A stretch of 38,160 nucleotides of DNA from Naegleria gruberi (lineage: Eukaryota): assembly GCA_000004985.1 (NCBI GenBank), contig GG739018.1, one strand, 5' to 3'. The position numbers and the translations under genes are program-made. Numbering within the stretch: position 1 is the first letter of the stretch; every line of letters starts with the position of its first letter. Under the pieces are notes generated by a model, which was given only the letters and a program-made list of their open reading frames with translations, was not told the origin of the DNA and did not search any database. Below, in pieces: positions 1,151 through 37,627 of the stretch.

Positions 1151-1151
1151 A

Positions 1152-2077: not shown

Positions 2078-2135
2078 TTTTTTGTAAGAAACTAATGTTT
2101 ATTGCAAGAAACATTTACATGAAATTTAAGTGAAT

Positions 2136-7989: not shown

Positions 7990-8267
7990 GCATGAATTAT
8001 TGGAAAATTTTCATTTCTTATCCTTGTAATGTATTCTCTAGAAAGTGAAAGAAGAGAATGGTTATCATCGGAATCTTCTTGACGATTCAAAAGTGCTTGA
8101 CTGTTAGTTTCCATCTTTTTCTGATTCAAATATTGTTGCCACATTGATTGTTTCTCCTCTTCACTAACATTATTCAAAGACGCTTGTTGTTGTTGATTCT
8201 TCATGATTGTTCTTTTAGTAATGTAAATTCCAGCAGAAAGTCCGAGTACGAAACCAAACATGCCCAT
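7990..8267 (-). CDS. Hypothetical membrane-anchored protein, N-terminal 92 codons (N-terminal hydrophobic helix with GxxxGxxxG, then a Q/N/E-rich region); the remainder is in the N block
   Basis: ATG at 8267-8265. Reads MGMFGFVLGLSAGIYITKRTIMKNQQQQASLNNVSEEEKQSMWQQYLNQKKMETNSQALLNRQEDSDDNHSLLSLSREYITRIRNENFPIIH... It is divergent from CWC15. Confidence 0.45.
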
Positions 8268-8691: not shown

Positions 8692-9220
8692 ATGTCATCA
8701 AGACCAACATTTAATGCAGCGAAAGCAACCGAGACACAAGGTGGTTATAAACGTTATGTTCCATCACATACACAATCTGTATATTTAATGCCTTCCCACA
8801 CAGTCTTAAAAACAAGACAGATCGGGCAAGGAAATGAGGAAGAAATTAAACATAAAGATTTAAAGAAGGAATTACAAGAACGAGAACAATTAGTACAAAA
8901 AAAGAAGAATAATCAATCATCAACAATAATACCAGCAATAGAGGAAGAAAAAAATAAAGATATAATTGAAGAAATTGTAGAGGAAGAAACAGAGGAATTT
9001 ACAAAAGTTCCAAAATCAAACTATGATGATTCTGATGATGATTTAAATACATCTTCTGATTCCGACTCTGATGGTGACTCTGATAATGATGAACTAATTA
9101 AGGAATTGGAAAGAGTAAAAAGAGCAAAAGAGGAGAAGGAAAGACTTGCAACACAAGAACGAGCATTGACTAGTAATCCATTATTAAAACCAATAAGTAG
9201 TAGAAGGATGATGATGATGA
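8692..9220 (+). CDS. CWC15: Pre-mRNA-splicing factor Cwc15 (CWC15/AD002 family), N-terminal 176 codons; the 3' end is lost in the N block
   Basis: MSSRPTFNAAKATETQGGYKRYVPSHTQ... aligns with the conserved Cwc15 N-terminus (human TTAARPTFEPARGG...LPSHTKIK), as remembered. KELQEREQL matches RELEERER. The acidic/Ser cluster DDSDDDLNTSSDSDSDGDSDNDELIKELERVKRAKEEKERL corresponds to the D/E-rich region plus ALLAELEKIKKERAEE. TSNPLL matches LSGNPLL. Start context AAAAATGTC. Confidence 0.8.
9208..9220 (+). repeat. (ATG)4 trinucleotide microsatellite abutting the N block; encodes MMMM in the CWC15 frame
   Basis: atgatgatgatga directly followed by n. Confidence 0.7.
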
Positions 9221-12200
9221 NNNNNNNNNNNNNNNNNNNNNNNNNNNNNNNNNNNNNNNNNNNNNNNNNNNNNNNNNNNNNNNNNNNNNNNNNNNNNNNN
9301 NNNNNNNNNNNNNNNNNNNNNNNNNNNNNNNNNNNNNNNNNNNNNNNNNNNNNNNNNNNNNNNNNNNNNNNNNNNNNNNNNNNNNNNNNNNNNNNNNNNN
9401 NNNNNNNNNNNNNNNNNNNNNNNNNNNNNNNNNNNNNNNNNNNNNNNNNNNNNNNNNNNNNNNNNNNNNNNNNNNNNNNNNNNNNNNNNNNNNNNNNNNN
9501 NNNNNNNNNNNNNNNNNNNNNNNNNNNNNNNNNNNNNNNNNNNNNNNNNNNNNNNNNNNNNNNNNNNNNNNNNNNNNNNNNNNNNNNNNNNNNNNNNNNN
9601 NNNNNNNNNNNNNNNNNNNNNNNNNNNNNNNNNNNNNNNNNNNNNNNNNNNNNNNNNNNNNNNNNNNNNNNNNNNNNNNNNNNNNNNNNNNNNNNNNNNN
9701 NNNNNNNNNNNNNNNNNNNNNNNNNNNNNNNNNNNNNNNNNNNNNNNNNNNNNNNNNNNNNNNNNNNNNNNNNNNNNNNNNNNNNNNNNNNNNNNNNNNN
9801 NNNNNNNNNNNNNNNNNNNNNNNNNNNNNNNNNNNNNNNNNNNNNNNNNNNNNNNNNNNNNNNNNNNNNNNNNNNNNNNNNNNNNNNNNNNNNNNNNNNN
9901 NNNNNNNNNNNNNNNNNNNNNNNNNNNNNNNNNNNNNNNNNNNNNNNNNNNNNNNNNNNNNNNNNNNNNNNNNNNNNNNNNNNNNNNNNNNNNNNNNNNN
10001 NNNNNNNNNNNNNNNNNNNNNNNNNNNNNNNNNNNNNNNNNNNNNNNNNNNNNNNNNNNNNNNNNNNNNNNNNNNNNNNNNNNNNNNNNNNNNNNNNNNN
10101 NNNNNNNNNNNNNNNNNNNNNNNNNNNNNNNNNNNNNNNNNNNNNNNNNNNNNNNNNNNNNNNNNNNNNNNNNNNNNNNNNNNNNNNNNNNNNNNNNNNN
10201 NNNNNNNNNNNNNNNNNNNNNNNNNNNNNNNNNNNNNNNNNNNNNNNNNNNNNNNNNNNNNNNNNNNNNNNNNNNNNNNNNNNNNNNNNNNNNNNNNNNN
10301 NNNNNNNNNNNNNNNNNNNNNNNNNNNNNNNNNNNNNNNNNNNNNNNNNNNNNNNNNNNNNNNNNNNNNNNNNNNNNNNNNNNNNNNNNNNNNNNNNNNN
10401 NNNNNNNNNNNNNNNNNNNNNNNNNNNNNNNNNNNNNNNNNNNNNNNNNNNNNNNNNNNNNNNNNNNNNNNNNNNNNNNNNNNNNNNNNNNNNNNNNNNN
10501 NNNNNNNNNNNNNNNNNNNNNNNNNNNNNNNNNNNNNNNNNNNNNNNNNNNNNNNNNNNNNNNNNNNNNNNNNNNNNNNNNNNNNNNNNNNNNNNNNNNN
10601 NNNNNNNNNNNNNNNNNNNNNNNNNNNNNNNNNNNNNNNNNNNNNNNNNNNNNNNNNNNNNNNNNNNNNNNNNNNNNNNNNNNNNNNNNNNNNNNNNNNN
10701 NNNNNNNNNNNNNNNNNNNNNNNNNNNNNNNNNNNNNNNNNNNNNNNNNNNNNNNNNNNNNNNNNNNNNNNNNNNNNNNNNNNNNNNNNNNNNNNNNNNN
10801 NNNNNNNNNNNNNNNNNNNNNNNNNNNNNNNNNNNNNNNNNNNNNNNNNNNNNNNNNNNNNNNNNNNNNNNNNNNNNNNNNNNNNNNNNNNNNNNNNNNN
10901 NNNNNNNNNNNNNNNNNNNNNNNNNNNNNNNNNNNNNNNNNNNNNNNNNNNNNNNNNNNNNNNNNNNNNNNNNNNNNNNNNNNNNNNNNNNNNNNNNNNN
11001 NNNNNNNNNNNNNNNNNNNNNNNNNNNNNNNNNNNNNNNNNNNNNNNNNNNNNNNNNNNNNNNNNNNNNNNNNNNNNNNNNNNNNNNNNNNNNNNNNNNN
11101 NNNNNNNNNNNNNNNNNNNNNNNNNNNNNNNNNNNNNNNNNNNNNNNNNNNNNNNNNNNNNNNNNNNNNNNNNNNNNNNNNNNNNNNNNNNNNNNNNNNN
11201 NNNNNNNNNNNNNNNNNNNNNNNNNNNNNNNNNNNNNNNNNNNNNNNNNNNNNNNNNNNNNNNNNNNNNNNNNNNNNNNNNNNNNNNNNNNNNNNNNNNN
11301 NNNNNNNNNNNNNNNNNNNNNNNNNNNNNNNNNNNNNNNNNNNNNNNNNNNNNNNNNNNNNNNNNNNNNNNNNNNNNNNNNNNNNNNNNNNNNNNNNNNN
11401 NNNNNNNNNNNNNNNNNNNNNNNNNNNNNNNNNNNNNNNNNNNNNNNNNNNNNNNNNNNNNNNNNNNNNNNNNNNNNNNNNNNNNNNNNNNNNNNNNNNN
11501 NNNNNNNNNNNNNNNNNNNNNNNNNNNNNNNNNNNNNNNNNNNNNNNNNNNNNNNNNNNNNNNNNNNNNNNNNNNNNNNNNNNNNNNNNNNNNNNNNNNN
11601 NNNNNNNNNNNNNNNNNNNNNNNNNNNNNNNNNNNNNNNNNNNNNNNNNNNNNNNNNNNNNNNNNNNNNNNNNNNNNNNNNNNNNNNNNNNNNNNNNNNN
11701 NNNNNNNNNNNNNNNNNNNNNNNNNNNNNNNNNNNNNNNNNNNNNNNNNNNNNNNNNNNNNNNNNNNNNNNNNNNNNNNNNNNNNNNNNNNNNNNNNNNN
11801 NNNNNNNNNNNNNNNNNNNNNNNNNNNNNNNNNNNNNNNNNNNNNNNNNNNNNNNNNNNNNNNNNNNNNNNNNNNNNNNNNNNNNNNNNNNNNNNNNNNN
11901 NNNNNNNNNNNNNNNNNNNNNNNNNNNNNNNNNNNNNNNNNNNNNNNNNNNNNNNNNNNNNNNNNNNNNNNNNNNNNNNNNNNNNNNNNNNNNNNNNNNN
12001 NNNNNNNNNNNNNNNNNNNNNNNNNNNNNNNNNNNNNNNNNNNNNNNNNNNNNNNNNNNNNNNNNNNNNNNNNNNNNNNNNNNNNNNNNNNNNNNNNNNN
12101 NNNNNNNNNNNNNNNNNNNNNNNNNNNNNNNNNNNNNNNNNNNNNNNNNNNNNNNNNNNNNNNNNNNNNNNNNNNNNNNNNNNNNNNNNNNNNNNNNNNN

Positions 12201-15200
12201 NNNNNNNNNNNNNNNNNNNNNNNNNNNNNNNNNNNNNNNNNNNNNNNNNNNNNNNNNNNNNNNNNNNNNNNNNNNNNNNNNNNNNNNNNNNNNNNNNNNN
12301 NNNNNNNNNNNNNNNNNNNNNNNNNNNNNNNNNNNNNNNNNNNNNNNNNNNNNNNNNNNNNNNNNNNNNNNNNNNNNNNNNNNNNNNNNNNNNNNNNNNN
12401 NNNNNNNNNNNNNNNNNNNNNNNNNNNNNNNNNNNNNNNNNNNNNNNNNNNNNNNNNNNNNNNNNNNNNNNNNNNNNNNNNNNNNNNNNNNNNNNNNNNN
12501 NNNNNNNNNNNNNNNNNNNNNNNNNNNNNNNNNNNNNNNNNNNNNNNNNNNNNNNNNNNNNNNNNNNNNNNNNNNNNNNNNNNNNNNNNNNNNNNNNNNN
12601 NNNNNNNNNNNNNNNNNNNNNNNNNNNNNNNNNNNNNNNNNNNNNNNNNNNNNNNNNNNNNNNNNNNNNNNNNNNNNNNNNNNNNNNNNNNNNNNNNNNN
12701 NNNNNNNNNNNNNNNNNNNNNNNNNNNNNNNNNNNNNNNNNNNNNNNNNNNNNNNNNNNNNNNNNNNNNNNNNNNNNNNNNNNNNNNNNNNNNNNNNNNN
12801 NNNNNNNNNNNNNNNNNNNNNNNNNNNNNNNNNNNNNNNNNNNNNNNNNNNNNNNNNNNNNNNNNNNNNNNNNNNNNNNNNNNNNNNNNNNNNNNNNNNN
12901 NNNNNNNNNNNNNNNNNNNNNNNNNNNNNNNNNNNNNNNNNNNNNNNNNNNNNNNNNNNNNNNNNNNNNNNNNNNNNNNNNNNNNNNNNNNNNNNNNNNN
13001 NNNNNNNNNNNNNNNNNNNNNNNNNNNNNNNNNNNNNNNNNNNNNNNNNNNNNNNNNNNNNNNNNNNNNNNNNNNNNNNNNNNNNNNNNNNNNNNNNNNN
13101 NNNNNNNNNNNNNNNNNNNNNNNNNNNNNNNNNNNNNNNNNNNNNNNNNNNNNNNNNNNNNNNNNNNNNNNNNNNNNNNNNNNNNNNNNNNNNNNNNNNN
13201 NNNNNNNNNNNNNNNNNNNNNNNNNNNNNNNNNNNNNNNNNNNNNNNNNNNNNNNNNNNNNNNNNNNNNNNNNNNNNNNNNNNNNNNNNNNNNNNNNNNN
13301 NNNNNNNNNNNNNNNNNNNNNNNNNNNNNNNNNNNNNNNNNNNNNNNNNNNNNNNNNNNNNNNNNNNNNNNNNNNNNNNNNNNNNNNNNNNNNNNNNNNN
13401 NNNNNNNNNNNNNNNNNNNNNNNNNNNNNNNNNNNNNNNNNNNNNNNNNNNNNNNNNNNNNNNNNNNNNNNNNNNNNNNNNNNNNNNNNNNNNNNNNNNN
13501 NNNNNNNNNNNNNNNNNNNNNNNNNNNNNNNNNNNNNNNNNNNNNNNNNNNNNNNNNNNNNNNNNNNNNNNNNNNNNNNNNNNNNNNNNNNNNNNNNNNN
13601 NNNNNNNNNNNNNNNNNNNNNNNNNNNNNNNNNNNNNNNNNNNNNNNNNNNNNNNNNNNNNNNNNNNNNNNNNNNNNNNNNNNNNNNNNNNNNNNNNNNN
13701 NNNNNNNNNNNNNNNNNNNNNNNNNNNNNNNNNNNNNNNNNNNNNNNNNNNNNNNNNNNNNNNNNNNNNNNNNNNNNNNNNNNNNNNNNNNNNNNNNNNN
13801 NNNNNNNNNNNNNNNNNNNNNNNNNNNNNNNNNNNNNNNNNNNNNNNNNNNNNNNNNNNNNNNNNNNNNNNNNNNNNNNNNNNNNNNNNNNNNNNNNNNN
13901 NNNNNNNNNNNNNNNNNNNNNNNNNNNNNNNNNNNNNNNNNNNNNNNNNNNNNNNNNNNNNNNNNNNNNNNNNNNNNNNNNNNNNNNNNNNNNNNNNNNN
14001 NNNNNNNNNNNNNNNNNNNNNNNNNNNNNNNNNNNNNNNNNNNNNNNNNNNNNNNNNNNNNNNNNNNNNNNNNNNNNNNNNNNNNNNNNNNNNNNNNNNN
14101 NNNNNNNNNNNNNNNNNNNNNNNNNNNNNNNNNNNNNNNNNNNNNNNNNNNNNNNNNNNNNNNNNNNNNNNNNNNNNNNNNNNNNNNNNNNNNNNNNNNN
14201 NNNNNNNNNNNNNNNNNNNNNNNNNNNNNNNNNNNNNNNNNNNNNNNNNNNNNNNNNNNNNNNNNNNNNNNNNNNNNNNNNNNNNNNNNNNNNNNNNNNN
14301 NNNNNNNNNNNNNNNNNNNNNNNNNNNNNNNNNNNNNNNNNNNNNNNNNNNNNNNNNNNNNNNNNNNNNNNNNNNNNNNNNNNNNNNNNNNNNNNNNNNN
14401 NNNNNNNNNNNNNNNNNNNNNNNNNNNNNNNNNNNNNNNNNNNNNNNNNNNNNNNNNNNNNNNNNNNNNNNNNNNNNNNNNNNNNNNNNNNNNNNNNNNN
14501 NNNNNNNNNNNNNNNNNNNNNNNNNNNNNNNNNNNNNNNNNNNNNNNNNNNNNNNNNNNNNNNNNNNNNNNNNNNNNNNNNNNNNNNNNNNNNNNNNNNN
14601 NNNNNNNNNNNNNNNNNNNNNNNNNNNNNNNNNNNNNNNNNNNNNNNNNNNNNNNNNNNNNNNNNNNNNNNNNNNNNNNNNNNNNNNNNNNNNNNNNNNN
14701 NNNNNNNNNNNNNNNNNNNNNNNNNNNNNNNNNNNNNNNNNNNNNNNNNNNNNNNNNNNNNNNNNNNNNNNNNNNNNNNNNNNNNNNNNNNNNNNNNNNN
14801 NNNNNNNNNNNNNNNNNNNNNNNNNNNNNNNNNNNNNNNNNNNNNNNNNNNNNNNNNNNNNNNNNNNNNNNNNNNNNNNNNNNNNNNNNNNNNNNNNNNN
14901 NNNNNNNNNNNNNNNNNNNNNNNNNNNNNNNNNNNNNNNNNNNNNNNNNNNNNNNNNNNNNNNNNNNNNNNNNNNNNNNNNNNNNNNNNNNNNNNNNNNN
15001 NNNNNNNNNNNNNNNNNNNNNNNNNNNNNNNNNNNNNNNNNNNNNNNNNNNNNNNNNNNNNNNNNNNNNNNNNNNNNNNNNNNNNNNNNNNNNNNNNNNN
15101 NNNNNNNNNNNNNNNNNNNNNNNNNNNNNNNNNNNNNNNNNNNNNNNNNNNNNNNNNNNNNNNNNNNNNNNNNNNNNNNNNNNNNNNNNNNNNNNNNNNN

Positions 15201-18200
15201 NNNNNNNNNNNNNNNNNNNNNNNNNNNNNNNNNNNNNNNNNNNNNNNNNNNNNNNNNNNNNNNNNNNNNNNNNNNNNNNNNNNNNNNNNNNNNNNNNNNN
15301 NNNNNNNNNNNNNNNNNNNNNNNNNNNNNNNNNNNNNNNNNNNNNNNNNNNNNNNNNNNNNNNNNNNNNNNNNNNNNNNNNNNNNNNNNNNNNNNNNNNN
15401 NNNNNNNNNNNNNNNNNNNNNNNNNNNNNNNNNNNNNNNNNNNNNNNNNNNNNNNNNNNNNNNNNNNNNNNNNNNNNNNNNNNNNNNNNNNNNNNNNNNN
15501 NNNNNNNNNNNNNNNNNNNNNNNNNNNNNNNNNNNNNNNNNNNNNNNNNNNNNNNNNNNNNNNNNNNNNNNNNNNNNNNNNNNNNNNNNNNNNNNNNNNN
15601 NNNNNNNNNNNNNNNNNNNNNNNNNNNNNNNNNNNNNNNNNNNNNNNNNNNNNNNNNNNNNNNNNNNNNNNNNNNNNNNNNNNNNNNNNNNNNNNNNNNN
15701 NNNNNNNNNNNNNNNNNNNNNNNNNNNNNNNNNNNNNNNNNNNNNNNNNNNNNNNNNNNNNNNNNNNNNNNNNNNNNNNNNNNNNNNNNNNNNNNNNNNN
15801 NNNNNNNNNNNNNNNNNNNNNNNNNNNNNNNNNNNNNNNNNNNNNNNNNNNNNNNNNNNNNNNNNNNNNNNNNNNNNNNNNNNNNNNNNNNNNNNNNNNN
15901 NNNNNNNNNNNNNNNNNNNNNNNNNNNNNNNNNNNNNNNNNNNNNNNNNNNNNNNNNNNNNNNNNNNNNNNNNNNNNNNNNNNNNNNNNNNNNNNNNNNN
16001 NNNNNNNNNNNNNNNNNNNNNNNNNNNNNNNNNNNNNNNNNNNNNNNNNNNNNNNNNNNNNNNNNNNNNNNNNNNNNNNNNNNNNNNNNNNNNNNNNNNN
16101 NNNNNNNNNNNNNNNNNNNNNNNNNNNNNNNNNNNNNNNNNNNNNNNNNNNNNNNNNNNNNNNNNNNNNNNNNNNNNNNNNNNNNNNNNNNNNNNNNNNN
16201 NNNNNNNNNNNNNNNNNNNNNNNNNNNNNNNNNNNNNNNNNNNNNNNNNNNNNNNNNNNNNNNNNNNNNNNNNNNNNNNNNNNNNNNNNNNNNNNNNNNN
16301 NNNNNNNNNNNNNNNNNNNNNNNNNNNNNNNNNNNNNNNNNNNNNNNNNNNNNNNNNNNNNNNNNNNNNNNNNNNNNNNNNNNNNNNNNNNNNNNNNNNN
16401 NNNNNNNNNNNNNNNNNNNNNNNNNNNNNNNNNNNNNNNNNNNNNNNNNNNNNNNNNNNNNNNNNNNNNNNNNNNNNNNNNNNNNNNNNNNNNNNNNNNN
16501 NNNNNNNNNNNNNNNNNNNNNNNNNNNNNNNNNNNNNNNNNNNNNNNNNNNNNNNNNNNNNNNNNNNNNNNNNNNNNNNNNNNNNNNNNNNNNNNNNNNN
16601 NNNNNNNNNNNNNNNNNNNNNNNNNNNNNNNNNNNNNNNNNNNNNNNNNNNNNNNNNNNNNNNNNNNNNNNNNNNNNNNNNNNNNNNNNNNNNNNNNNNN
16701 NNNNNNNNNNNNNNNNNNNNNNNNNNNNNNNNNNNNNNNNNNNNNNNNNNNNNNNNNNNNNNNNNNNNNNNNNNNNNNNNNNNNNNNNNNNNNNNNNNNN
16801 NNNNNNNNNNNNNNNNNNNNNNNNNNNNNNNNNNNNNNNNNNNNNNNNNNNNNNNNNNNNNNNNNNNNNNNNNNNNNNNNNNNNNNNNNNNNNNNNNNNN
16901 NNNNNNNNNNNNNNNNNNNNNNNNNNNNNNNNNNNNNNNNNNNNNNNNNNNNNNNNNNNNNNNNNNNNNNNNNNNNNNNNNNNNNNNNNNNNNNNNNNNN
17001 NNNNNNNNNNNNNNNNNNNNNNNNNNNNNNNNNNNNNNNNNNNNNNNNNNNNNNNNNNNNNNNNNNNNNNNNNNNNNNNNNNNNNNNNNNNNNNNNNNNN
17101 NNNNNNNNNNNNNNNNNNNNNNNNNNNNNNNNNNNNNNNNNNNNNNNNNNNNNNNNNNNNNNNNNNNNNNNNNNNNNNNNNNNNNNNNNNNNNNNNNNNN
17201 NNNNNNNNNNNNNNNNNNNNNNNNNNNNNNNNNNNNNNNNNNNNNNNNNNNNNNNNNNNNNNNNNNNNNNNNNNNNNNNNNNNNNNNNNNNNNNNNNNNN
17301 NNNNNNNNNNNNNNNNNNNNNNNNNNNNNNNNNNNNNNNNNNNNNNNNNNNNNNNNNNNNNNNNNNNNNNNNNNNNNNNNNNNNNNNNNNNNNNNNNNNN
17401 NNNNNNNNNNNNNNNNNNNNNNNNNNNNNNNNNNNNNNNNNNNNNNNNNNNNNNNNNNNNNNNNNNNNNNNNNNNNNNNNNNNNNNNNNNNNNNNNNNNN
17501 NNNNNNNNNNNNNNNNNNNNNNNNNNNNNNNNNNNNNNNNNNNNNNNNNNNNNNNNNNNNNNNNNNNNNNNNNNNNNNNNNNNNNNNNNNNNNNNNNNNN
17601 NNNNNNNNNNNNNNNNNNNNNNNNNNNNNNNNNNNNNNNNNNNNNNNNNNNNNNNNNNNNNNNNNNNNNNNNNNNNNNNNNNNNNNNNNNNNNNNNNNNN
17701 NNNNNNNNNNNNNNNNNNNNNNNNNNNNNNNNNNNNNNNNNNNNNNNNNNNNNNNNNNNNNNNNNNNNNNNNNNNNNNNNNNNNNNNNNNNNNNNNNNNN
17801 NNNNNNNNNNNNNNNNNNNNNNNNNNNNNNNNNNNNNNNNNNNNNNNNNNNNNNNNNNNNNNNNNNNNNNNNNNNNNNNNNNNNNNNNNNNNNNNNNNNN
17901 NNNNNNNNNNNNNNNNNNNNNNNNNNNNNNNNNNNNNNNNNNNNNNNNNNNNNNNNNNNNNNNNNNNNNNNNNNNNNNNNNNNNNNNNNNNNNNNNNNNN
18001 NNNNNNNNNNNNNNNNNNNNNNNNNNNNNNNNNNNNNNNNNNNNNNNNNNNNNNNNNNNNNNNNNNNNNNNNNNNNNNNNNNNNNNNNNNNNNNNNNNNN
18101 NNNNNNNNNNNNNNNNNNNNNNNNNNNNNNNNNNNNNNNNNNNNNNNNNNNNNNNNNNNNNNNNNNNNNNNNNNNNNNNNNNNNNNNNNNNNNNNNNNNN

Positions 18201-27200: not shown

Positions 27201-30200
27201 NNNNNNNNNNNNNNNNNNNNNNNNNNNNNNNNNNNNNNNNNNNNNNNNNNNNNNNNNNNNNNNNNNNNNNNNNNNNNNNNNNNNNNNNNNNNNNNNNNNN
27301 NNNNNNNNNNNNNNNNNNNNNNNNNNNNNNNNNNNNNNNNNNNNNNNNNNNNNNNNNNNNNNNNNNNNNNNNNNNNNNNNNNNNNNNNNNNNNNNNNNNN
27401 NNNNNNNNNNNNNNNNNNNNNNNNNNNNNNNNNNNNNNNNNNNNNNNNNNNNNNNNNNNNNNNNNNNNNNNNNNNNNNNNNNNNNNNNNNNNNNNNNNNN
27501 NNNNNNNNNNNNNNNNNNNNNNNNNNNNNNNNNNNNNNNNNNNNNNNNNNNNNNNNNNNNNNNNNNNNNNNNNNNNNNNNNNNNNNNNNNNNNNNNNNNN
27601 NNNNNNNNNNNNNNNNNNNNNNNNNNNNNNNNNNNNNNNNNNNNNNNNNNNNNNNNNNNNNNNNNNNNNNNNNNNNNNNNNNNNNNNNNNNNNNNNNNNN
27701 NNNNNNNNNNNNNNNNNNNNNNNNNNNNNNNNNNNNNNNNNNNNNNNNNNNNNNNNNNNNNNNNNNNNNNNNNNNNNNNNNNNNNNNNNNNNNNNNNNNN
27801 NNNNNNNNNNNNNNNNNNNNNNNNNNNNNNNNNNNNNNNNNNNNNNNNNNNNNNNNNNNNNNNNNNNNNNNNNNNNNNNNNNNNNNNNNNNNNNNNNNNN
27901 NNNNNNNNNNNNNNNNNNNNNNNNNNNNNNNNNNNNNNNNNNNNNNNNNNNNNNNNNNNNNNNNNNNNNNNNNNNNNNNNNNNNNNNNNNNNNNNNNNNN
28001 NNNNNNNNNNNNNNNNNNNNNNNNNNNNNNNNNNNNNNNNNNNNNNNNNNNNNNNNNNNNNNNNNNNNNNNNNNNNNNNNNNNNNNNNNNNNNNNNNNNN
28101 NNNNNNNNNNNNNNNNNNNNNNNNNNNNNNNNNNNNNNNNNNNNNNNNNNNNNNNNNNNNNNNNNNNNNNNNNNNNNNNNNNNNNNNNNNNNNNNNNNNN
28201 NNNNNNNNNNNNNNNNNNNNNNNNNNNNNNNNNNNNNNNNNNNNNNNNNNNNNNNNNNNNNNNNNNNNNNNNNNNNNNNNNNNNNNNNNNNNNNNNNNNN
28301 NNNNNNNNNNNNNNNNNNNNNNNNNNNNNNNNNNNNNNNNNNNNNNNNNNNNNNNNNNNNNNNNNNNNNNNNNNNNNNNNNNNNNNNNNNNNNNNNNNNN
28401 NNNNNNNNNNNNNNNNNNNNNNNNNNNNNNNNNNNNNNNNNNNNNNNNNNNNNNNNNNNNNNNNNNNNNNNNNNNNNNNNNNNNNNNNNNNNNNNNNNNN
28501 NNNNNNNNNNNNNNNNNNNNNNNNNNNNNNNNNNNNNNNNNNNNNNNNNNNNNNNNNNNNNNNNNNNNNNNNNNNNNNNNNNNNNNNNNNNNNNNNNNNN
28601 NNNNNNNNNNNNNNNNNNNNNNNNNNNNNNNNNNNNNNNNNNNNNNNNNNNNNNNNNNNNNNNNNNNNNNNNNNNNNNNNNNNNNNNNNNNNNNNNNNNN
28701 NNNNNNNNNNNNNNNNNNNNNNNNNNNNNNNNNNNNNNNNNNNNNNNNNNNNNNNNNNNNNNNNNNNNNNNNNNNNNNNNNNNNNNNNNNNNNNNNNNNN
28801 NNNNNNNNNNNNNNNNNNNNNNNNNNNNNNNNNNNNNNNNNNNNNNNNNNNNNNNNNNNNNNNNNNNNNNNNNNNNNNNNNNNNNNNNNNNNNNNNNNNN
28901 NNNNNNNNNNNNNNNNNNNNNNNNNNNNNNNNNNNNNNNNNNNNNNNNNNNNNNNNNNNNNNNNNNNNNNNNNNNNNNNNNNNNNNNNNNNNNNNNNNNN
29001 NNNNNNNNNNNNNNNNNNNNNNNNNNNNNNNNNNNNNNNNNNNNNNNNNNNNNNNNNNNNNNNNNNNNNNNNNNNNNNNNNNNNNNNNNNNNNNNNNNNN
29101 NNNNNNNNNNNNNNNNNNNNNNNNNNNNNNNNNNNNNNNNNNNNNNNNNNNNNNNNNNNNNNNNNNNNNNNNNNNNNNNNNNNNNNNNNNNNNNNNNNNN
29201 NNNNNNNNNNNNNNNNNNNNNNNNNNNNNNNNNNNNNNNNNNNNNNNNNNNNNNNNNNNNNNNNNNNNNNNNNNNNNNNNNNNNNNNNNNNNNNNNNNNN
29301 NNNNNNNNNNNNNNNNNNNNNNNNNNNNNNNNNNNNNNNNNNNNNNNNNNNNNNNNNNNNNNNNNNNNNNNNNNNNNNNNNNNNNNNNNNNNNNNNNNNN
29401 NNNNNNNNNNNNNNNNNNNNNNNNNNNNNNNNNNNNNNNNNNNNNNNNNNNNNNNNNNNNNNNNNNNNNNNNNNNNNNNNNNNNNNNNNNNNNNNNNNNN
29501 NNNNNNNNNNNNNNNNNNNNNNNNNNNNNNNNNNNNNNNNNNNNNNNNNNNNNNNNNNNNNNNNNNNNNNNNNNNNNNNNNNNNNNNNNNNNNNNNNNNN
29601 NNNNNNNNNNNNNNNNNNNNNNNNNNNNNNNNNNNNNNNNNNNNNNNNNNNNNNNNNNNNNNNNNNNNNNNNNNNNNNNNNNNNNNNNNNNNNNNNNNNN
29701 NNNNNNNNNNNNNNNNNNNNNNNNNNNNNNNNNNNNNNNNNNNNNNNNNNNNNNNNNNNNNNNNNNNNNNNNNNNNNNNNNNNNNNNNNNNNNNNNNNNN
29801 NNNNNNNNNNNNNNNNNNNNNNNNNNNNNNNNNNNNNNNNNNNNNNNNNNNNNNNNNNNNNNNNNNNNNNNNNNNNNNNNNNNNNNNNNNNNNNNNNNNN
29901 NNNNNNNNNNNNNNNNNNNNNNNNNNNNNNNNNNNNNNNNNNNNNNNNNNNNNNNNNNNNNNNNNNNNNNNNNNNNNNNNNNNNNNNNNNNNNNNNNNNN
30001 NNNNNNNNNNNNNNNNNNNNNNNNNNNNNNNNNNNNNNNNNNNNNNNNNNNNNNNNNNNNNNNNNNNNNNNNNNNNNNNNNNNNNNNNNNNNNNNNNNNN
30101 NNNNNNNNNNNNNNNNNNNNNNNNNNNNNNNNNNNNNNNNNNNNNNNNNNNNNNNNNNNNNNNNNNNNNNNNNNNNNNNNNNNNNNNNNNNNNNNNNNNN

Positions 30201-33200
30201 NNNNNNNNNNNNNNNNNNNNNNNNNNNNNNNNNNNNNNNNNNNNNNNNNNNNNNNNNNNNNNNNNNNNNNNNNNNNNNNNNNNNNNNNNNNNNNNNNNNN
30301 NNNNNNNNNNNNNNNNNNNNNNNNNNNNNNNNNNNNNNNNNNNNNNNNNNNNNNNNNNNNNNNNNNNNNNNNNNNNNNNNNNNNNNNNNNNNNNNNNNNN
30401 NNNNNNNNNNNNNNNNNNNNNNNNNNNNNNNNNNNNNNNNNNNNNNNNNNNNNNNNNNNNNNNNNNNNNNNNNNNNNNNNNNNNNNNNNNNNNNNNNNNN
30501 NNNNNNNNNNNNNNNNNNNNNNNNNNNNNNNNNNNNNNNNNNNNNNNNNNNNNNNNNNNNNNNNNNNNNNNNNNNNNNNNNNNNNNNNNNNNNNNNNNNN
30601 NNNNNNNNNNNNNNNNNNNNNNNNNNNNNNNNNNNNNNNNNNNNNNNNNNNNNNNNNNNNNNNNNNNNNNNNNNNNNNNNNNNNNNNNNNNNNNNNNNNN
30701 NNNNNNNNNNNNNNNNNNNNNNNNNNNNNNNNNNNNNNNNNNNNNNNNNNNNNNNNNNNNNNNNNNNNNNNNNNNNNNNNNNNNNNNNNNNNNNNNNNNN
30801 NNNNNNNNNNNNNNNNNNNNNNNNNNNNNNNNNNNNNNNNNNNNNNNNNNNNNNNNNNNNNNNNNNNNNNNNNNNNNNNNNNNNNNNNNNNNNNNNNNNN
30901 NNNNNNNNNNNNNNNNNNNNNNNNNNNNNNNNNNNNNNNNNNNNNNNNNNNNNNNNNNNNNNNNNNNNNNNNNNNNNNNNNNNNNNNNNNNNNNNNNNNN
31001 NNNNNNNNNNNNNNNNNNNNNNNNNNNNNNNNNNNNNNNNNNNNNNNNNNNNNNNNNNNNNNNNNNNNNNNNNNNNNNNNNNNNNNNNNNNNNNNNNNNN
31101 NNNNNNNNNNNNNNNNNNNNNNNNNNNNNNNNNNNNNNNNNNNNNNNNNNNNNNNNNNNNNNNNNNNNNNNNNNNNNNNNNNNNNNNNNNNNNNNNNNNN
31201 NNNNNNNNNNNNNNNNNNNNNNNNNNNNNNNNNNNNNNNNNNNNNNNNNNNNNNNNNNNNNNNNNNNNNNNNNNNNNNNNNNNNNNNNNNNNNNNNNNNN
31301 NNNNNNNNNNNNNNNNNNNNNNNNNNNNNNNNNNNNNNNNNNNNNNNNNNNNNNNNNNNNNNNNNNNNNNNNNNNNNNNNNNNNNNNNNNNNNNNNNNNN
31401 NNNNNNNNNNNNNNNNNNNNNNNNNNNNNNNNNNNNNNNNNNNNNNNNNNNNNNNNNNNNNNNNNNNNNNNNNNNNNNNNNNNNNNNNNNNNNNNNNNNN
31501 NNNNNNNNNNNNNNNNNNNNNNNNNNNNNNNNNNNNNNNNNNNNNNNNNNNNNNNNNNNNNNNNNNNNNNNNNNNNNNNNNNNNNNNNNNNNNNNNNNNN
31601 NNNNNNNNNNNNNNNNNNNNNNNNNNNNNNNNNNNNNNNNNNNNNNNNNNNNNNNNNNNNNNNNNNNNNNNNNNNNNNNNNNNNNNNNNNNNNNNNNNNN
31701 NNNNNNNNNNNNNNNNNNNNNNNNNNNNNNNNNNNNNNNNNNNNNNNNNNNNNNNNNNNNNNNNNNNNNNNNNNNNNNNNNNNNNNNNNNNNNNNNNNNN
31801 NNNNNNNNNNNNNNNNNNNNNNNNNNNNNNNNNNNNNNNNNNNNNNNNNNNNNNNNNNNNNNNNNNNNNNNNNNNNNNNNNNNNNNNNNNNNNNNNNNNN
31901 NNNNNNNNNNNNNNNNNNNNNNNNNNNNNNNNNNNNNNNNNNNNNNNNNNNNNNNNNNNNNNNNNNNNNNNNNNNNNNNNNNNNNNNNNNNNNNNNNNNN
32001 NNNNNNNNNNNNNNNNNNNNNNNNNNNNNNNNNNNNNNNNNNNNNNNNNNNNNNNNNNNNNNNNNNNNNNNNNNNNNNNNNNNNNNNNNNNNNNNNNNNN
32101 NNNNNNNNNNNNNNNNNNNNNNNNNNNNNNNNNNNNNNNNNNNNNNNNNNNNNNNNNNNNNNNNNNNNNNNNNNNNNNNNNNNNNNNNNNNNNNNNNNNN
32201 NNNNNNNNNNNNNNNNNNNNNNNNNNNNNNNNNNNNNNNNNNNNNNNNNNNNNNNNNNNNNNNNNNNNNNNNNNNNNNNNNNNNNNNNNNNNNNNNNNNN
32301 NNNNNNNNNNNNNNNNNNNNNNNNNNNNNNNNNNNNNNNNNNNNNNNNNNNNNNNNNNNNNNNNNNNNNNNNNNNNNNNNNNNNNNNNNNNNNNNNNNNN
32401 NNNNNNNNNNNNNNNNNNNNNNNNNNNNNNNNNNNNNNNNNNNNNNNNNNNNNNNNNNNNNNNNNNNNNNNNNNNNNNNNNNNNNNNNNNNNNNNNNNNN
32501 NNNNNNNNNNNNNNNNNNNNNNNNNNNNNNNNNNNNNNNNNNNNNNNNNNNNNNNNNNNNNNNNNNNNNNNNNNNNNNNNNNNNNNNNNNNNNNNNNNNN
32601 NNNNNNNNNNNNNNNNNNNNNNNNNNNNNNNNNNNNNNNNNNNNNNNNNNNNNNNNNNNNNNNNNNNNNNNNNNNNNNNNNNNNNNNNNNNNNNNNNNNN
32701 NNNNNNNNNNNNNNNNNNNNNNNNNNNNNNNNNNNNNNNNNNNNNNNNNNNNNNNNNNNNNNNNNNNNNNNNNNNNNNNNNNNNNNNNNNNNNNNNNNNN
32801 NNNNNNNNNNNNNNNNNNNNNNNNNNNNNNNNNNNNNNNNNNNNNNNNNNNNNNNNNNNNNNNNNNNNNNNNNNNNNNNNNNNNNNNNNNNNNNNNNNNN
32901 NNNNNNNNNNNNNNNNNNNNNNNNNNNNNNNNNNNNNNNNNNNNNNNNNNNNNNNNNNNNNNNNNNNNNNNNNNNNNNNNNNNNNNNNNNNNNNNNNNNN
33001 NNNNNNNNNNNNNNNNNNNNNNNNNNNNNNNNNNNNNNNNNNNNNNNNNNNNNNNNNNNNNNNNNNNNNNNNNNNNNNNNNNNNNNNNNNNNNNNNNNNN
33101 NNNNNNNNNNNNNNNNNNNNNNNNNNNNNNNNNNNNNNNNNNNNNNNNNNNNNNNNNNNNNNNNNNNNNNNNNNNNNNNNNNNNNNNNNNNNNNNNNNNN

Positions 33201-36200
33201 NNNNNNNNNNNNNNNNNNNNNNNNNNNNNNNNNNNNNNNNNNNNNNNNNNNNNNNNNNNNNNNNNNNNNNNNNNNNNNNNNNNNNNNNNNNNNNNNNNNN
33301 NNNNNNNNNNNNNNNNNNNNNNNNNNNNNNNNNNNNNNNNNNNNNNNNNNNNNNNNNNNNNNNNNNNNNNNNNNNNNNNNNNNNNNNNNNNNNNNNNNNN
33401 NNNNNNNNNNNNNNNNNNNNNNNNNNNNNNNNNNNNNNNNNNNNNNNNNNNNNNNNNNNNNNNNNNNNNNNNNNNNNNNNNNNNNNNNNNNNNNNNNNNN
33501 NNNNNNNNNNNNNNNNNNNNNNNNNNNNNNNNNNNNNNNNNNNNNNNNNNNNNNNNNNNNNNNNNNNNNNNNNNNNNNNNNNNNNNNNNNNNNNNNNNNN
33601 NNNNNNNNNNNNNNNNNNNNNNNNNNNNNNNNNNNNNNNNNNNNNNNNNNNNNNNNNNNNNNNNNNNNNNNNNNNNNNNNNNNNNNNNNNNNNNNNNNNN
33701 NNNNNNNNNNNNNNNNNNNNNNNNNNNNNNNNNNNNNNNNNNNNNNNNNNNNNNNNNNNNNNNNNNNNNNNNNNNNNNNNNNNNNNNNNNNNNNNNNNNN
33801 NNNNNNNNNNNNNNNNNNNNNNNNNNNNNNNNNNNNNNNNNNNNNNNNNNNNNNNNNNNNNNNNNNNNNNNNNNNNNNNNNNNNNNNNNNNNNNNNNNNN
33901 NNNNNNNNNNNNNNNNNNNNNNNNNNNNNNNNNNNNNNNNNNNNNNNNNNNNNNNNNNNNNNNNNNNNNNNNNNNNNNNNNNNNNNNNNNNNNNNNNNNN
34001 NNNNNNNNNNNNNNNNNNNNNNNNNNNNNNNNNNNNNNNNNNNNNNNNNNNNNNNNNNNNNNNNNNNNNNNNNNNNNNNNNNNNNNNNNNNNNNNNNNNN
34101 NNNNNNNNNNNNNNNNNNNNNNNNNNNNNNNNNNNNNNNNNNNNNNNNNNNNNNNNNNNNNNNNNNNNNNNNNNNNNNNNNNNNNNNNNNNNNNNNNNNN
34201 NNNNNNNNNNNNNNNNNNNNNNNNNNNNNNNNNNNNNNNNNNNNNNNNNNNNNNNNNNNNNNNNNNNNNNNNNNNNNNNNNNNNNNNNNNNNNNNNNNNN
34301 NNNNNNNNNNNNNNNNNNNNNNNNNNNNNNNNNNNNNNNNNNNNNNNNNNNNNNNNNNNNNNNNNNNNNNNNNNNNNNNNNNNNNNNNNNNNNNNNNNNN
34401 NNNNNNNNNNNNNNNNNNNNNNNNNNNNNNNNNNNNNNNNNNNNNNNNNNNNNNNNNNNNNNNNNNNNNNNNNNNNNNNNNNNNNNNNNNNNNNNNNNNN
34501 NNNNNNNNNNNNNNNNNNNNNNNNNNNNNNNNNNNNNNNNNNNNNNNNNNNNNNNNNNNNNNNNNNNNNNNNNNNNNNNNNNNNNNNNNNNNNNNNNNNN
34601 NNNNNNNNNNNNNNNNNNNNNNNNNNNNNNNNNNNNNNNNNNNNNNNNNNNNNNNNNNNNNNNNNNNNNNNNNNNNNNNNNNNNNNNNNNNNNNNNNNNN
34701 NNNNNNNNNNNNNNNNNNNNNNNNNNNNNNNNNNNNNNNNNNNNNNNNNNNNNNNNNNNNNNNNNNNNNNNNNNNNNNNNNNNNNNNNNNNNNNNNNNNN
34801 NNNNNNNNNNNNNNNNNNNNNNNNNNNNNNNNNNNNNNNNNNNNNNNNNNNNNNNNNNNNNNNNNNNNNNNNNNNNNNNNNNNNNNNNNNNNNNNNNNNN
34901 NNNNNNNNNNNNNNNNNNNNNNNNNNNNNNNNNNNNNNNNNNNNNNNNNNNNNNNNNNNNNNNNNNNNNNNNNNNNNNNNNNNNNNNNNNNNNNNNNNNN
35001 NNNNNNNNNNNNNNNNNNNNNNNNNNNNNNNNNNNNNNNNNNNNNNNNNNNNNNNNNNNNNNNNNNNNNNNNNNNNNNNNNNNNNNNNNNNNNNNNNNNN
35101 NNNNNNNNNNNNNNNNNNNNNNNNNNNNNNNNNNNNNNNNNNNNNNNNNNNNNNNNNNNNNNNNNNNNNNNNNNNNNNNNNNNNNNNNNNNNNNNNNNNN
35201 NNNNNNNNNNNNNNNNNNNNNNNNNNNNNNNNNNNNNNNNNNNNNNNNNNNNNNNNNNNNNNNNNNNNNNNNNNNNNNNNNNNNNNNNNNNNNNNNNNNN
35301 NNNNNNNNNNNNNNNNNNNNNNNNNNNNNNNNNNNNNNNNNNNNNNNNNNNNNNNNNNNNNNNNNNNNNNNNNNNNNNNNNNNNNNNNNNNNNNNNNNNN
35401 NNNNNNNNNNNNNNNNNNNNNNNNNNNNNNNNNNNNNNNNNNNNNNNNNNNNNNNNNNNNNNNNNNNNNNNNNNNNNNNNNNNNNNNNNNNNNNNNNNNN
35501 NNNNNNNNNNNNNNNNNNNNNNNNNNNNNNNNNNNNNNNNNNNNNNNNNNNNNNNNNNNNNNNNNNNNNNNNNNNNNNNNNNNNNNNNNNNNNNNNNNNN
35601 NNNNNNNNNNNNNNNNNNNNNNNNNNNNNNNNNNNNNNNNNNNNNNNNNNNNNNNNNNNNNNNNNNNNNNNNNNNNNNNNNNNNNNNNNNNNNNNNNNNN
35701 NNNNNNNNNNNNNNNNNNNNNNNNNNNNNNNNNNNNNNNNNNNNNNNNNNNNNNNNNNNNNNNNNNNNNNNNNNNNNNNNNNNNNNNNNNNNNNNNNNNN
35801 NNNNNNNNNNNNNNNNNNNNNNNNNNNNNNNNNNNNNNNNNNNNNNNNNNNNNNNNNNNNNNNNNNNNNNNNNNNNNNNNNNNNNNNNNNNNNNNNNNNN
35901 NNNNNNNNNNNNNNNNNNNNNNNNNNNNNNNNNNNNNNNNNNNNNNNNNNNNNNNNNNNNNNNNNNNNNNNNNNNNNNNNNNNNNNNNNNNNNNNNNNNN
36001 NNNNNNNNNNNNNNNNNNNNNNNNNNNNNNNNNNNNNNNNNNNNNNNNNNNNNNNNNNNNNNNNNNNNNNNNNNNNNNNNNNNNNNNNNNNNNNNNNNNN
36101 NNNNNNNNNNNNNNNNNNNNNNNNNNNNNNNNNNNNNNNNNNNNNNNNNNNNNNNNNNNNNNNNNNNNNNNNNNNNNNNNNNNNNNNNNNNNNNNNNNNN

Positions 36201-36486
36201 NNNNNNNNNNNNNNNNNNNNNNNNNNNNNNNNNNNNNNNNNNNNNNNNNNNNNNNNNNNNNNNNNNNNNNNNNNNNNNNNNNNNNNNNNNNNNNNNNNNN
36301 NNNNNNNNNNNNNNNNNNNNNNNNNNNNNNNNNNNNNNNNNNNNNNNNNNNNNNNNNNNNNNNNNNNNNNNNNNNNNNNNNNNNNNNNNNNNNNNNNNNN
36401 NNNNNNNNNNNNNNNNNNNNNNNNNNNNNNNNNNNNNNNNNNNNNNNNNNNNNNNNNNNNNNNNNNNNNNNNNNNNNNNNNNNNNN
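9221..36486. other. Run of 27,266 N (masked sequence or gap). It begins inside CWC15 and ends inside an ABCG transporter gene; the content cannot be assessed.
   Basis: Contiguous n characters. The 9,273-aa, 9,157-aa and 9,104-aa ORFs in the track are poly-X artefacts. Confidence 1.
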
Positions 36487-36487
36487 A

Positions 36488-37490: not shown

Positions 37491-37547
37491 TCGGGTGTGT
37501 ATAGTGGTAGCATTCCAGACTGTCACTCTGGCGACCCGGGTTCAATT
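37491..37547 (+). tRNA. tRNA-Asp(GUC), 5' segment of a gene interrupted in the T-loop: acceptor 5' strand TCGGGTG, U8, D-loop AGTGGTA, anticodon arm CCAGA-CTGTCAC-TCTGG (anticodon GTC at 37522-37524), 4-nt variable CGAC, T-stem 5' strand CCGGG, T-loop TTCAATT
   Basis: Perfect 5-bp anticodon stem with a 7-nt loop, U33 and GUC. The T-loop TTCAATT is the same as the yeast tRNA-Asp T-loop UUCAAUU (recalled). The 4-nt variable region is as in tRNA-Asp. The D-stem is imperfect (GTAT/GCAT or GTGT/GCAT) and the D region is 2 nt short. The 3' strands are absent locally but present at 37967-37986. Confidence 0.5.
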
Positions 37548-37585
37548 TGTTTTGTTAGTTGAATGATATCGGTCATTCCTTATTT

Positions 37586-37627
37586 GGAAATTTCATTCCC
37601 GGTACCCATGGTATGAACGAGAGTTTT
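37586..37627 (+). repeat. 42-bp direct repeat, copy 1 (GGAAATTTCATTCCCGGTACCCATGGTATGAACGAGAGTTTT). It contains the near-palindrome GGTACCCATGGTA at 37601-37613.
   Basis: Matches 37927-37968 at 39 of 42 positions. A CTCGAG hexamer follows both copies within 21 nt (37643-37648 and 37981-37986). Confidence 0.7.

What the first reader, a model, noticed from the sequence alone, without database searches (positions are those of the whole stretch)
9221..36486. 83% of the window is hidden; the 27-kb block begins inside CWC15 and ends inside an ABCG transporter gene
Seen in sequence: three N runs (245, 4,135 and 27,266 nt). At the left edge of the large block only ~0.2-0.4 kb of CWC15 can remain, judging from family length. 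At the right edge, ~1-3 kb of the ABCG gene (its NBD plus TM1-2) must precede 36488. That leaves roughly 23-25 kb of completely unknown content between them. Any gene cluster or novel system in this locus would be there, and it cannot be evaluated. The giant ORFs in the supplied track are artefacts. Frame relationships across the N runs are only meaningful if the run lengths are true rather than gap estimates (245 is not divisible by 3).
Basis: seen in the sequence. Interest (0 to 1): 0.5.

Follow-up and report, generated by a model that had tools for sequence, protein, structure and literature searches.

The report
Assembly gaps in redundant Naegleria scaffold
The 27-kb run of Ns is an ordinary sequencing gap in a small, redundant scaffold of the Naegleria gruberi draft genome, and the same stretch, with both genes intact and eleven ordinary genes between them, is already sequenced on a large scaffold of the same assembly.

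Summary
The window has N runs of 1, 245, 4,135 and 27,266 nt, which is 82.9% of its length. The big run starts inside a Cwf15/Cwc15 gene and ends inside an ABCG ("white") transporter gene.

The window is an entire 38,160-bp scaffold of the Sanger-era Naegleria gruberi NEG-M draft. The annotated protein XP_002668550 (245 aa) lies on a contig of exactly that length and starts at the first Met after the gap, so the Ns were already there at annotation. They are scaffold gaps, not a mask.

The content is not unknown. Complete CWC15 (226 aa) and complete ABCG (1,691 aa) both lie on a 941,567-bp scaffold of the same assembly, on the same strand, with eleven gene models between them.
- Five of those models were identified here: a 384-aa protein, proteasome beta, a 625-aa protein, an 862-aa protein and a Sensor-like membrane protein.
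- A sixth is probably a WD40 gene, by synteny.
- The gap hides 151 nt of CWC15 and 4,268 nt of ABCG.

Nothing unusual was found. The interest is very low: this is a draft-assembly artefact.

The parts
79..2079 (-). Fragments of a gene with weak RCC1-like similarity, interrupted by the 245-nt gap. There are apparent frame changes near 620-700 and near 1935.
   Evidence: Six-frame translation. Pfam gives sub-threshold WD40_RLD and RCC1 hits. There is no counterpart in the sister-species loci.
1152..1396 (.). Scaffold gap 1 (245 N), inside the RCC1-like gene.
   Evidence: The reading frames on the two sides are out of register by 248 nt, as expected for an estimated gap length.
2136..3405 (-). 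Gene for a protein with a weak BTB/POZ match, possibly with a roughly 49-nt intron near 2410-2458.
   Evidence: ORFs 2425-3405 and 2136-2450. Pfam BTB E = 0.0014, below the curated cutoff.
3583..3854 (+). First 90 codons of the orthologue of a 554-570-aa TPR protein of N. lovaniensis and N. fowleri. It runs into gap 2.
   Evidence: tblastn gives 61% identity to L002 4305-4580 and L003 4313-4576.
3855..7989 (.). Scaffold gap 2 (4,135 N). By synteny it should hold the rest of the TPR gene, an APH-family kinase-like gene, a tRNA(U5)-methyltransferase gene and the 3' end of the small membrane-protein gene.
   Evidence: The equivalent interval is 4,828 nt in N. lovaniensis L002 (4580-9408) and about 4.9 kb in N. 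fowleri L003. L001 1-839 extends into the gap and carries the methyltransferase N-terminus.
7990..8267 (-). First 92 codons of a small gene with a hydrophobic, probably membrane-spanning N-terminus (112 aa in the close relative L001).
   Evidence: ORF. The L001 gene is at 782-1120. tblastn matches L002 and L003.
8692..9220 (+). CWC15 (Cwf15/Cwc15 spliceosome protein), codons 1-176 of 226. A 1-nt deletion at 9201/9202, 19 nt before the contig end, shifts the frame.
   Evidence: Pfam PF04889 E = 5e-23. 99% identity to P0001. Base-level alignment to L001. Exact counts.
9221..36486 (.). Scaffold gap 3 (27,266 N, an estimated length). The inferred content is the last 151 nt of CWC15, eleven gene models, and the first 4,268 nt of ABCG. 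The models are D2V0R0 (384 aa), D2V0Q9 (proteasome beta), D2V0Q8 (625 aa), D2V0Q7 (862 aa), D2V0Q6 (Sensor-like membrane protein) and D2V0Q5-Q0 (six not retrievable here; the first is probably a WD40 gene).
36487..37294 (+). Last 268 codons plus the stop of the ABCG ('white family') gene, equal to residues 1424-1691 of P0012. The public model XP_002668550 (P0009, 245 aa) is ORF 36557-37291.
   Evidence: Pfam ABC2_membrane_7 and ABC2_membrane.. Exact identity confirmed.
37491..37610 (+). tRNA-Asp(GTC)-like remnant split by a 50-nt insertion (37547-37596) in the T-loop. It is not part of the finding.
   Evidence: ARAGORN calls it only after the insertion is removed. No Rfam hit. The fold is no better than shuffles.

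Best explanation
The window is one complete, very gappy 38,160-bp scaffold of the Sanger-era draft assembly of Naegleria gruberi NEG-M. The N runs are scaffold gaps whose lengths are estimates, not measured sequence.

The scaffold is a redundant 'shadow' copy of a region that is fully assembled on a 941,567-bp scaffold of the same assembly. Most likely it represents the second haplotype, or leftover low-quality reads that the assembler failed to merge.

Inferred mechanism:
1. Most reads from this region were assembled into the main scaffold.
2. A few reads that differed, through allelic differences or read-end errors, formed four small contigs of 1.1-2.5 kb.
3. Clone-end pairs ordered and spaced those contigs, leaving N-filled gaps.

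The 27-kb gap therefore corresponds to known sequence:
- the last 151 nt of CWC15;
- eleven ordinary gene models;
- the first 4,268 nt of a 1,691-aa ABCG-type protein.

What is shown: the organism, the identity of the scaffold, the existence, strand and order of the full-length genes on the main scaffold, and the content of the first 9 kb.

What is inferred: haplotig versus leftover reads as the cause, the mate-pair origin of the gap sizes, and the identity of the six middle genes.
For: 1. Organism and scaffold identity.
- CWC15 is 99% identical to N. gruberi P0001.
- P0009 (EFC35806/XP_002668550, 'predicted protein', NEG-M) lies on a contig of 38,160 bp, which is the window length.
- P0009 equals ORF 36557-37291 exactly.

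2. The gaps pre-date annotation. P0009 starts at the first Met after the N run, and no CWC15 model from this scaffold clusters with P0001. The annotators therefore had no sequence there.

3. Redundancy.
- Full-length CWC15 (P0001, 226 aa) and full-length ABCG (P0012, 1,691 aa) are both on the 941,567-bp scaffold.
- The window fragments are identical to them over 170-176 aa and 268 aa.
- A third scaffold (56,452 bp) carries another partial copy of the ABCG N-terminus with one substitution (P0013).

4. Order, strand and spacing agree.
- UniProt accessions D2V0Q6 to D2V0R1 run consecutively in exactly the gene order seen in contig L001. ABCG is D2V0P9, seven models further on.
- The GenBank numbers put CWC15 (EFC49771) and ABCG (EFC49763) in the same strand series, matching the + / + arrangement in the window.
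- Budget: 151 + 8,972 (L001) + 4,268 nt leaves 13,875 nt for six models. That is in line with about 1.8 kb per gene in L001.

5. The second gap also fits. 4,135 N corresponds to 4.8-4.9 kb in N. lovaniensis and N. fowleri with conserved gene order.

6. Assembly type. NEG-M is a Sanger assembly of 40.9 Mb in 1,977 pieces, and heterozygosity is reported for N. gruberi (PMC9928731).

7. The only frame-breaking difference from the main copy is a 1-nt deletion 19 nt from a contig end. That is typical of a low-quality read end.
Against: - I could not obtain the DNA of the 941-kb scaffold. P0001 and P0009 are not indexed in the look-up of encoding contigs. Collinearity therefore rests on protein identity, accession order and a 96.6%-identical relative, not on a direct DNA alignment.
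- Six of the eleven intervening gene models were not seen.
- The left-hand genes of the window (BTB-like, RCC1-like) could not be placed on the main scaffold.
- In N. lovaniensis the ABCG orthologue is on a different contig from CWC15, so sister-species synteny does not independently confirm the linkage.
- That the gap sizes are mate-pair estimates is my knowledge of Sanger-era scaffolding. It is not documented by a tool result.
Confidence: 0.85

Rival explanations
1. The scaffold is a genuine second genomic locus, from a recent segmental duplication or a strongly diverged haplotype. In that case the hidden 23 kb could differ in content from the main-scaffold copy.
For: - A frameshifting 1-nt deletion in the window's CWC15 could mark a decaying paralogue.
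- A third scaffold carries an ABCG N-terminal copy with an R18C difference.
- Heterozygosity is reported for N. gruberi (PMC9928731).
Against: - The fragments are 100% identical at the protein level over 170 and 268 residues.
- The deletion sits 19 nt from a contig end.
- The estimated gap lengths match the single-copy gene budget and the distances in relatives.
- The readable islands are only 1.1-2.5 kb, as expected for leftover reads and not for an independently assembled locus.
Confidence: 0.08
2. The Ns are a mask laid over real sequence, either hard repeat-masking or deliberate masking by the data provider, and not gaps in the assembly.
For: - One tool description states that a few stretches of one collection are masked as runs of N.
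- The full-length CWC15 protein shows that the missing 50 codons exist somewhere in the assembly.
Against: - The full-length CWC15 and ABCG models are on a different scaffold of 941,567 bp.
- The only model on this scaffold's ABCG piece is truncated to the first Met after the N run. That would not happen if the annotators had had the sequence.
- 27 kb containing at least eleven protein-coding genes is not repeat sequence.
Confidence: 0.04
3. The scaffold is a chimeric mis-join, so the CWC15 contig and the ABCG contig are not really about 27 kb apart on one molecule.
For: - The scaffold is made of tiny contigs with very little sequence support.
- In N. lovaniensis the two genes lie on different contigs.
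Against: - On the N. gruberi main scaffold the two genes are twelve accession steps apart and in the same strand series.
- The estimated distance fits the gene budget.
- The order across gap 2 also matches conserved synteny.
Confidence: 0.03

Closest known systems
Scaffold gap in a redundant (haplotig or 'shadow') scaffold of a Sanger-era draft eukaryotic assembly
   Same: - Non-round N-run lengths and small read-sized contigs.
- Gene models truncated at the gap edges.
- Identical full-length genes on a large primary scaffold, plus a further partial copy on a third small scaffold.
   Different: Nothing distinguishes it from the usual case. Whether allelic divergence or read error caused the failure to merge could not be determined without the main-scaffold DNA.
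Cwf15/Cwc15 spliceosome (NTC-associated) protein family, Pfam PF04889
   Same: The window fragment matches the profile over positions 5-170 of 244 (E = 5e-23). It is the N. gruberi orthologue (P0001, 226 aa), with orthologues in N. lovaniensis, N. fowleri, Willaertia and Acrasis.
   Different: The window copy is truncated by the gap and carries a 1-nt deletion near the contig end.
ABCG ('white') transporters with the ABC2_membrane_7 (PF19055) membrane domain
   Same: - The C-terminal membrane domain matches PF19055 and PF01061.
- The NBD-like region precedes the membrane domain, as in ABCG proteins.
- The source names the protein 'abc transporter, white family'.
   Different: - The full protein is 1,691 aa, with a Cys-rich N-terminal extension of about 900 aa that has no Pfam match.
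- The NBD is degenerate: ABC_tran scores 21.6 bits, below the cutoff of 25, there is no GxxxxGK[ST] Walker A and no [LIVMFY]SGG signature motif. It may not hydrolyse ATP.

Membership tests
Assembly gap in a public draft scaffold | The N run is part of the deposited record, so the scaffold length includes the Ns. | tested here: met
   P0009 (XP_002668550) is recorded on a contig of 38,160 bp, the window length including the Ns.
Assembly gap in a public draft scaffold | Annotation stops at the gap edges. | tested here: met
   P0009 equals ORF 36557-37291, which starts at the first Met after the gap. No CWC15 fragment model clusters with P0001.
Assembly gap in a public draft scaffold | The gap length is an estimate from paired clone ends, not a measured sequence length. 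| not testable with these tools
   There is no access to the AGP file or the read placements. Indirect support: reading frames do not match across the 245-nt gap, and the 4,135-nt gap corresponds to 4.8-4.9 kb in relatives.
Redundant haplotig or shadow scaffold | The same genes are present, complete and near-identical, on a primary scaffold of the same assembly. | tested here: met
   P0001 and P0012 lie on the 941,567-bp scaffold. Identity to the window fragments is 170-176 of 176 aa and 268 of 268 aa.
Redundant haplotig or shadow scaffold | Collinear order, orientation and spacing with the primary copy. | tested here: inconclusive
   Accession order (D2V0P9 to D2V0R1), the strand series (EFC497xx) and the gene budget all agree. 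No DNA alignment to the primary scaffold was possible.
Cwf15/Cwc15 (PF04889) | A match to the family profile above the curated cutoff. | tested here: met
   82.6 bits against a cutoff of 30.4.
ABCG / white half-transporter | An ABC-2 type membrane domain at the C-terminus. | tested here: met
   For the window fragment, PF19055 scores 65 bits (cutoff 22.7) and PF01061 scores 54.8 bits (cutoff 26.9). For P0012, PF19055 scores 116.7 bits.
ABCG / white half-transporter | A functional nucleotide-binding domain (Walker A, ABC signature, Walker B) N-terminal to the membrane domain. | tested here: not met
   In full-length P0012, ABC_tran scores only 21.6 bits, below the cutoff of 25. There is no GxxxxGK[ST] and no [LIVMFY]SGG motif in the NBD region. 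The fold is recognisable but the catalytic motifs are degenerate.

The most novel reading that the evidence does not exclude
The small scaffold could be a structurally distinct second haplotype or paralogous locus of N. gruberi NEG-M. Its unsequenced 23 kb might then differ from the main-scaffold copy, for example through a haplotype-specific insertion, a mobile element or allele-specific genes.
Probability: 0.04. Interest if true: 0.3.

Novelty: not a real feature. Interest (0 to 1): 0.03.

Why it matters
It matters only as housekeeping. Windows like this one should be filtered out or redirected to the primary scaffold before they are scanned for novel systems. The N block is an assembly artefact, and the giant ORFs it creates are spurious.

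The genes that belong in the gap are a spliceosome factor 3' end, a proteasome beta subunit, several Naegleria-specific hypothetical proteins, probably a WD40 protein, and an ABCG-type protein. They are ordinary and already annotated, and no open question becomes testable.

The one mildly interesting by-product is the ABCG-type protein itself. It is a 1,691-aa 'white family' member with a huge Cys-rich N-terminal extension and a degenerate ATP-binding domain, and it is conserved between N. gruberi and N. lovaniensis.

Tried and rejected
1. A direct look-up of the N. gruberi loci for P0001 and P0009 failed, because neither is on record in the look-up of encoding contigs. The main-scaffold DNA could not be read.
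The word-based candidate step evidently does not cope with a chimeric query.
3. A metagenome-contig scan with the full ABCG protein found no relative.
4. Exact look-ups of eight guessed (partial) gene models for the window's left-hand genes and the CWC15 fragment found none in the collection. The BTB-like and RCC1-like genes therefore could not be placed on the main scaffold.
5. I tried to fill the gap by sister-species synteny from both ends.
- The CWC15 side works for 10 kb.
- The ABCG orthologue of N. lovaniensis is on another contig, so its neighbours (LRR protein, glutamate dehydrogenase, Epg5) cannot be assumed to be in the N. gruberi gap.
6. A literature search for the accession numbers of the intervening models found nothing. 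The 2010 genome paper is not held.
7. A functional tRNA downstream of ABCG was rejected. ARAGORN and Rfam find nothing in the native sequence, and the fold is no better than shuffles.
8. A pipeline mask was rejected because the public gene model is truncated at the gap edge.
Full report
**Observation.** The window holds N runs at position 12 (1 nt), 1152-1396 (245 nt), 3855-7989 (4,135 nt) and 9221-36486 (27,266 nt). That is 31,647 of 38,160 bases, or 82.9%. Four islands are readable: 13-1151, 1397-3854, 7990-9220 and 36487-38160. All are about 32% GC. The very long ORFs that a mechanical ORF finder lists are strings of X running through the Ns. The description in the finding is accurate.

**What flanks the large block.**
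- On the left, ORF 8692-9220 (+) matches Pfam Cwf_Cwc_15 at 82.6 bits (E = 5e-23). It is 99% identical to the Naegleria gruberi Cwf15/Cwc15 protein P0001 (226 aa).
- On the right, 36488-37291 (+) matches ABC2_membrane_7 and ABC2_membrane. It is identical to the last 268 residues of P0012, a 1,691-aa N. gruberi 'abc transporter, white family'.

**What the window is.** The homology search with the ABCG fragment returned P0009 (EFC35806.1 / XP_002668550.1, 'predicted protein', N. gruberi NEG-M). It is 245 aa and lies on a contig of 38,160 bp, which is exactly the window length. P0009 is identical to ORF 36557-37291, the ORF from the first Met after the N run. The window is therefore one entire small scaffold of the public NEG-M assembly. 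The annotators already lacked the sequence upstream of 36487.

NEG-M is a Sanger assembly of 40.9 Mb in 1,977 pieces (PMC9928731 Table 1). The Ns are scaffold gaps and not a mask. Their non-round lengths are what Sanger-era scaffolders wrote as size estimates from paired clone ends; this last point is my background knowledge and was not tested. Consistent with that, the reading frames on either side of the 245-nt gap are separated by 248 nt and do not agree.

**The hidden content is already sequenced elsewhere in the same assembly.** Exact-sequence cluster look-ups show that complete CWC15 (P0001 = EFC49771 / D2V0R1) and complete ABCG (P0012 = EFC49763 / D2V0P9) both lie on a scaffold of 941,567 bp.

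L001 is a metagenome contig from a very close relative (ENA ERZ929261, 11,179 bp). It aligns with window 7990-9220 at 96.6% identity and extends 9.1 kb further right. It carries five genes after CWC15. Their NEG-M counterparts are all on the 941,567-bp scaffold and have consecutive UniProt accessions in the same order:

| L001 gene | Strand | NEG-M counterpart |
|---|---|---|
| 384-aa protein | − | P0022 / D2V0R0 |
| proteasome beta subunit | + | P0025 / D2V0Q9 |
| 625-aa protein | + | P0019 / D2V0Q8 |
| 862-aa protein | − | P0015 / D2V0Q7 |
| 480-aa membrane protein with a Pfam 'Sensor' match | + | P0017 / D2V0Q6 |

Accession order therefore tracks gene order. ABCG (D2V0P9) lies seven models beyond D2V0Q6, with D2V0Q0-Q5 in between. 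The GenBank numbers place CWC15 and ABCG in the same strand series (EFC497xx), with four same-strand models between EFC49768 and EFC49763. That implies two more models on the other strand. This matches the window, where both genes are on the + strand with ABCG downstream.

**Arithmetic.**

| Item | nt |
|---|---|
| Gap length as written | 27,266 |
| CWC15 hidden, including the stop | 151 |
| ABCG hidden (residues 1-1423) | 4,268 |
| Space between the two genes | 22,847 |
| Accounted for by L001 (five genes) | 8,972 |
| Left for the six remaining models | 13,875 |

The ABCG orthologue of N. lovaniensis is intronless. The 13,875 nt left for six models is in line with about 1.8 kb per gene in L001, so the gap estimate is realistic.

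The figure for ABCG (1-3 kb) is clearly too low, because the protein has an N-terminal extension of about 900 aa. The figure for the space between the genes (23-25 kb) is about right.

**Synteny in other Naegleria species.** N. lovaniensis (L002) and N. fowleri (L003) share the following order: TPR protein, APH-family protein, tRNA(U5)-methyltransferase, small membrane protein, CWC15, a roughly 385-aa protein, proteasome beta, a roughly 540-580-aa protein, a roughly 850-aa protein, a roughly 468-aa membrane protein, and then a WD40-repeat gene on the minus strand.
- tblastn confirms orthology of each N. gruberi protein.
- The next gene in the N. gruberi gap (D2V0Q5) is therefore probably the WD40 gene. 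This is an inference.
- The window's gene start at 3583 is the orthologue of the TPR gene (61% identity). The 4,135-nt gap corresponds to 4.8-4.9 kb in the sister species, carrying the rest of the TPR gene, the APH gene and the methyltransferase gene. The order of contigs across gap 2 is thus also sensible.
- The ABCG orthologue of N. lovaniensis (P0029, 1,721 aa, found) lies on a different contig from CWC15. The CWC15-to-ABCG linkage is specific to the N. gruberi lineage, and the neighbours of ABCG in N. lovaniensis cannot be used to fill the gap.

**Why a redundant scaffold exists.** The readable islands are 1.1-2.5 kb, the size of one to a few Sanger reads. At the protein level they are identical to the main copy. 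The one exception is a single missing A at 9201/9202, 19 nt before the contig end. It shifts the CWC15 frame (…SSRRMMMM instead of …SSKKDDDD) and is absent from both L001 and P0001. A third scaffold (56,452 bp) carries yet another partial copy of the ABCG N-terminus, with one substitution (P0013). Heterozygosity is reported for N. gruberi (PMC9928731).

The simplest account is this. Reads from the second haplotype, or reads with errors, failed to merge with the main scaffold. They formed tiny contigs and were strung together by clone-end links. The gaps mark places where the reads went into the main scaffold instead. I could not tell allelic divergence from read error, because the main-scaffold DNA was not retrievable.

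**Rivals.**
- A genuine second locus with different hidden content is not excluded, but it is disfavoured by the identities and the matching distances.
- A mask over real sequence is contradicted by the truncated public gene model.
- A chimeric join is contradicted by the agreement of order, strand and distance with the main scaffold.

**Verdict.** The 'hidden' block is an assembly gap in a redundant scaffold. Its content is ordinary and already public. Five of the eleven intervening genes were identified here and a sixth was inferred; none suggests a gene cluster or a novel system. The novelty class is 'not a real feature' and the interest is very low.

Noticed in passing
window 37491-37610 (+): A tRNA-Asp(GTC)-like sequence is split by a 50-nt insertion (37547-37596) between GGTTCAAT and TCCCGG of the T-arm. 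ARAGORN calls a weak tRNA-Asp only after the insertion is removed. Rfam finds nothing, the fold is no better than shuffles, and there is no tRNA in the sister-species loci. It is probably a tRNA-derived remnant.
   Followed up: partly
window 37576-37627 and 37917-37968: A 52-nt direct repeat (88% identical, 341 nt apart) includes the 3' part of the tRNA-like sequence (TTCATTCCCGGTA[C/G]CCATG[G/A]TATGAACGAGAGTTTT). It may be a small tRNA-derived repeat element.
   Followed up: partly
P0012 (full-length copy of the gene ending at window 36487-37294): The 1,691-aa 'white family' ABC protein has a Cys-rich N-terminal extension of about 900 aa with no Pfam match. Its NBD is degenerate: ABC_tran scores 21.6 bits, below the cutoff of 25; the Walker A region reads IIGVDSEATS; there is no LSGG signature; and the Walker B region reads LFVDNP. 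The protein is conserved at 65% identity, and is intronless, in N. lovaniensis (L004 10001-15166).
   Followed up: partly
window 9201/9202: A single-base deletion relative to L001 and to the main-scaffold protein frameshifts CWC15 19 nt before the contig end. It is probably a read-end error, though it could be an allelic difference.
   Followed up: yes
L001 9730-11172 vs P0017; L001 4697-6681 vs P0019: The NEG-M gene model P0017 (230 aa, NAEGRDRAFT_78062) looks truncated. The close relative has an intact 480-aa ORF, and N. lovaniensis and N. fowleri have 468-469 aa. Conversely, the prokaryote-style gene calls on the metagenome contig split intron-containing genes (the proteasome gene, the 625-aa gene and the 384-aa gene) into pieces.
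   Followed up: partly
L001 (ENA ERZ929261, contig k127_371540): A sample labelled as a metagenome contains an 11-kb contig from an amoeba 96.6% identical to N. gruberi NEG-M over this locus. It is presumably another member of the N. gruberi species complex.
   Followed up: no
window 79-2079 (-): The RCC1-like gene changes reading frame near 620-700 and near 1935 without an obvious GT-AG intron. The cause could be very short introns or indel errors in low-coverage contigs.
   Followed up: no
window 1-12: The scaffold starts with 11 GC-rich bases (TCCCACCACCA) followed by a single N. This is unlike the AT-rich remainder and is probably a low-quality or vector-adjacent read start.
   Followed up: no
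L002 vs L004 (N. lovaniensis PYSW02000002.1 and PYSW02000004.1): CWC15 and the ABCG orthologue are on different large contigs in N. lovaniensis, whereas they are twelve gene models apart in N. gruberi. There has been a rearrangement between the lineages somewhere inside the interval that the gap covers.
   Followed up: partly
P0013 (N. gruberi scaffold of 56,452 bp): A third NEG-M scaffold carries a partial copy of the ABCG N-terminus (132 aa, R18C). Several small redundant scaffolds therefore shadow this region of the main scaffold.
   Followed up: no
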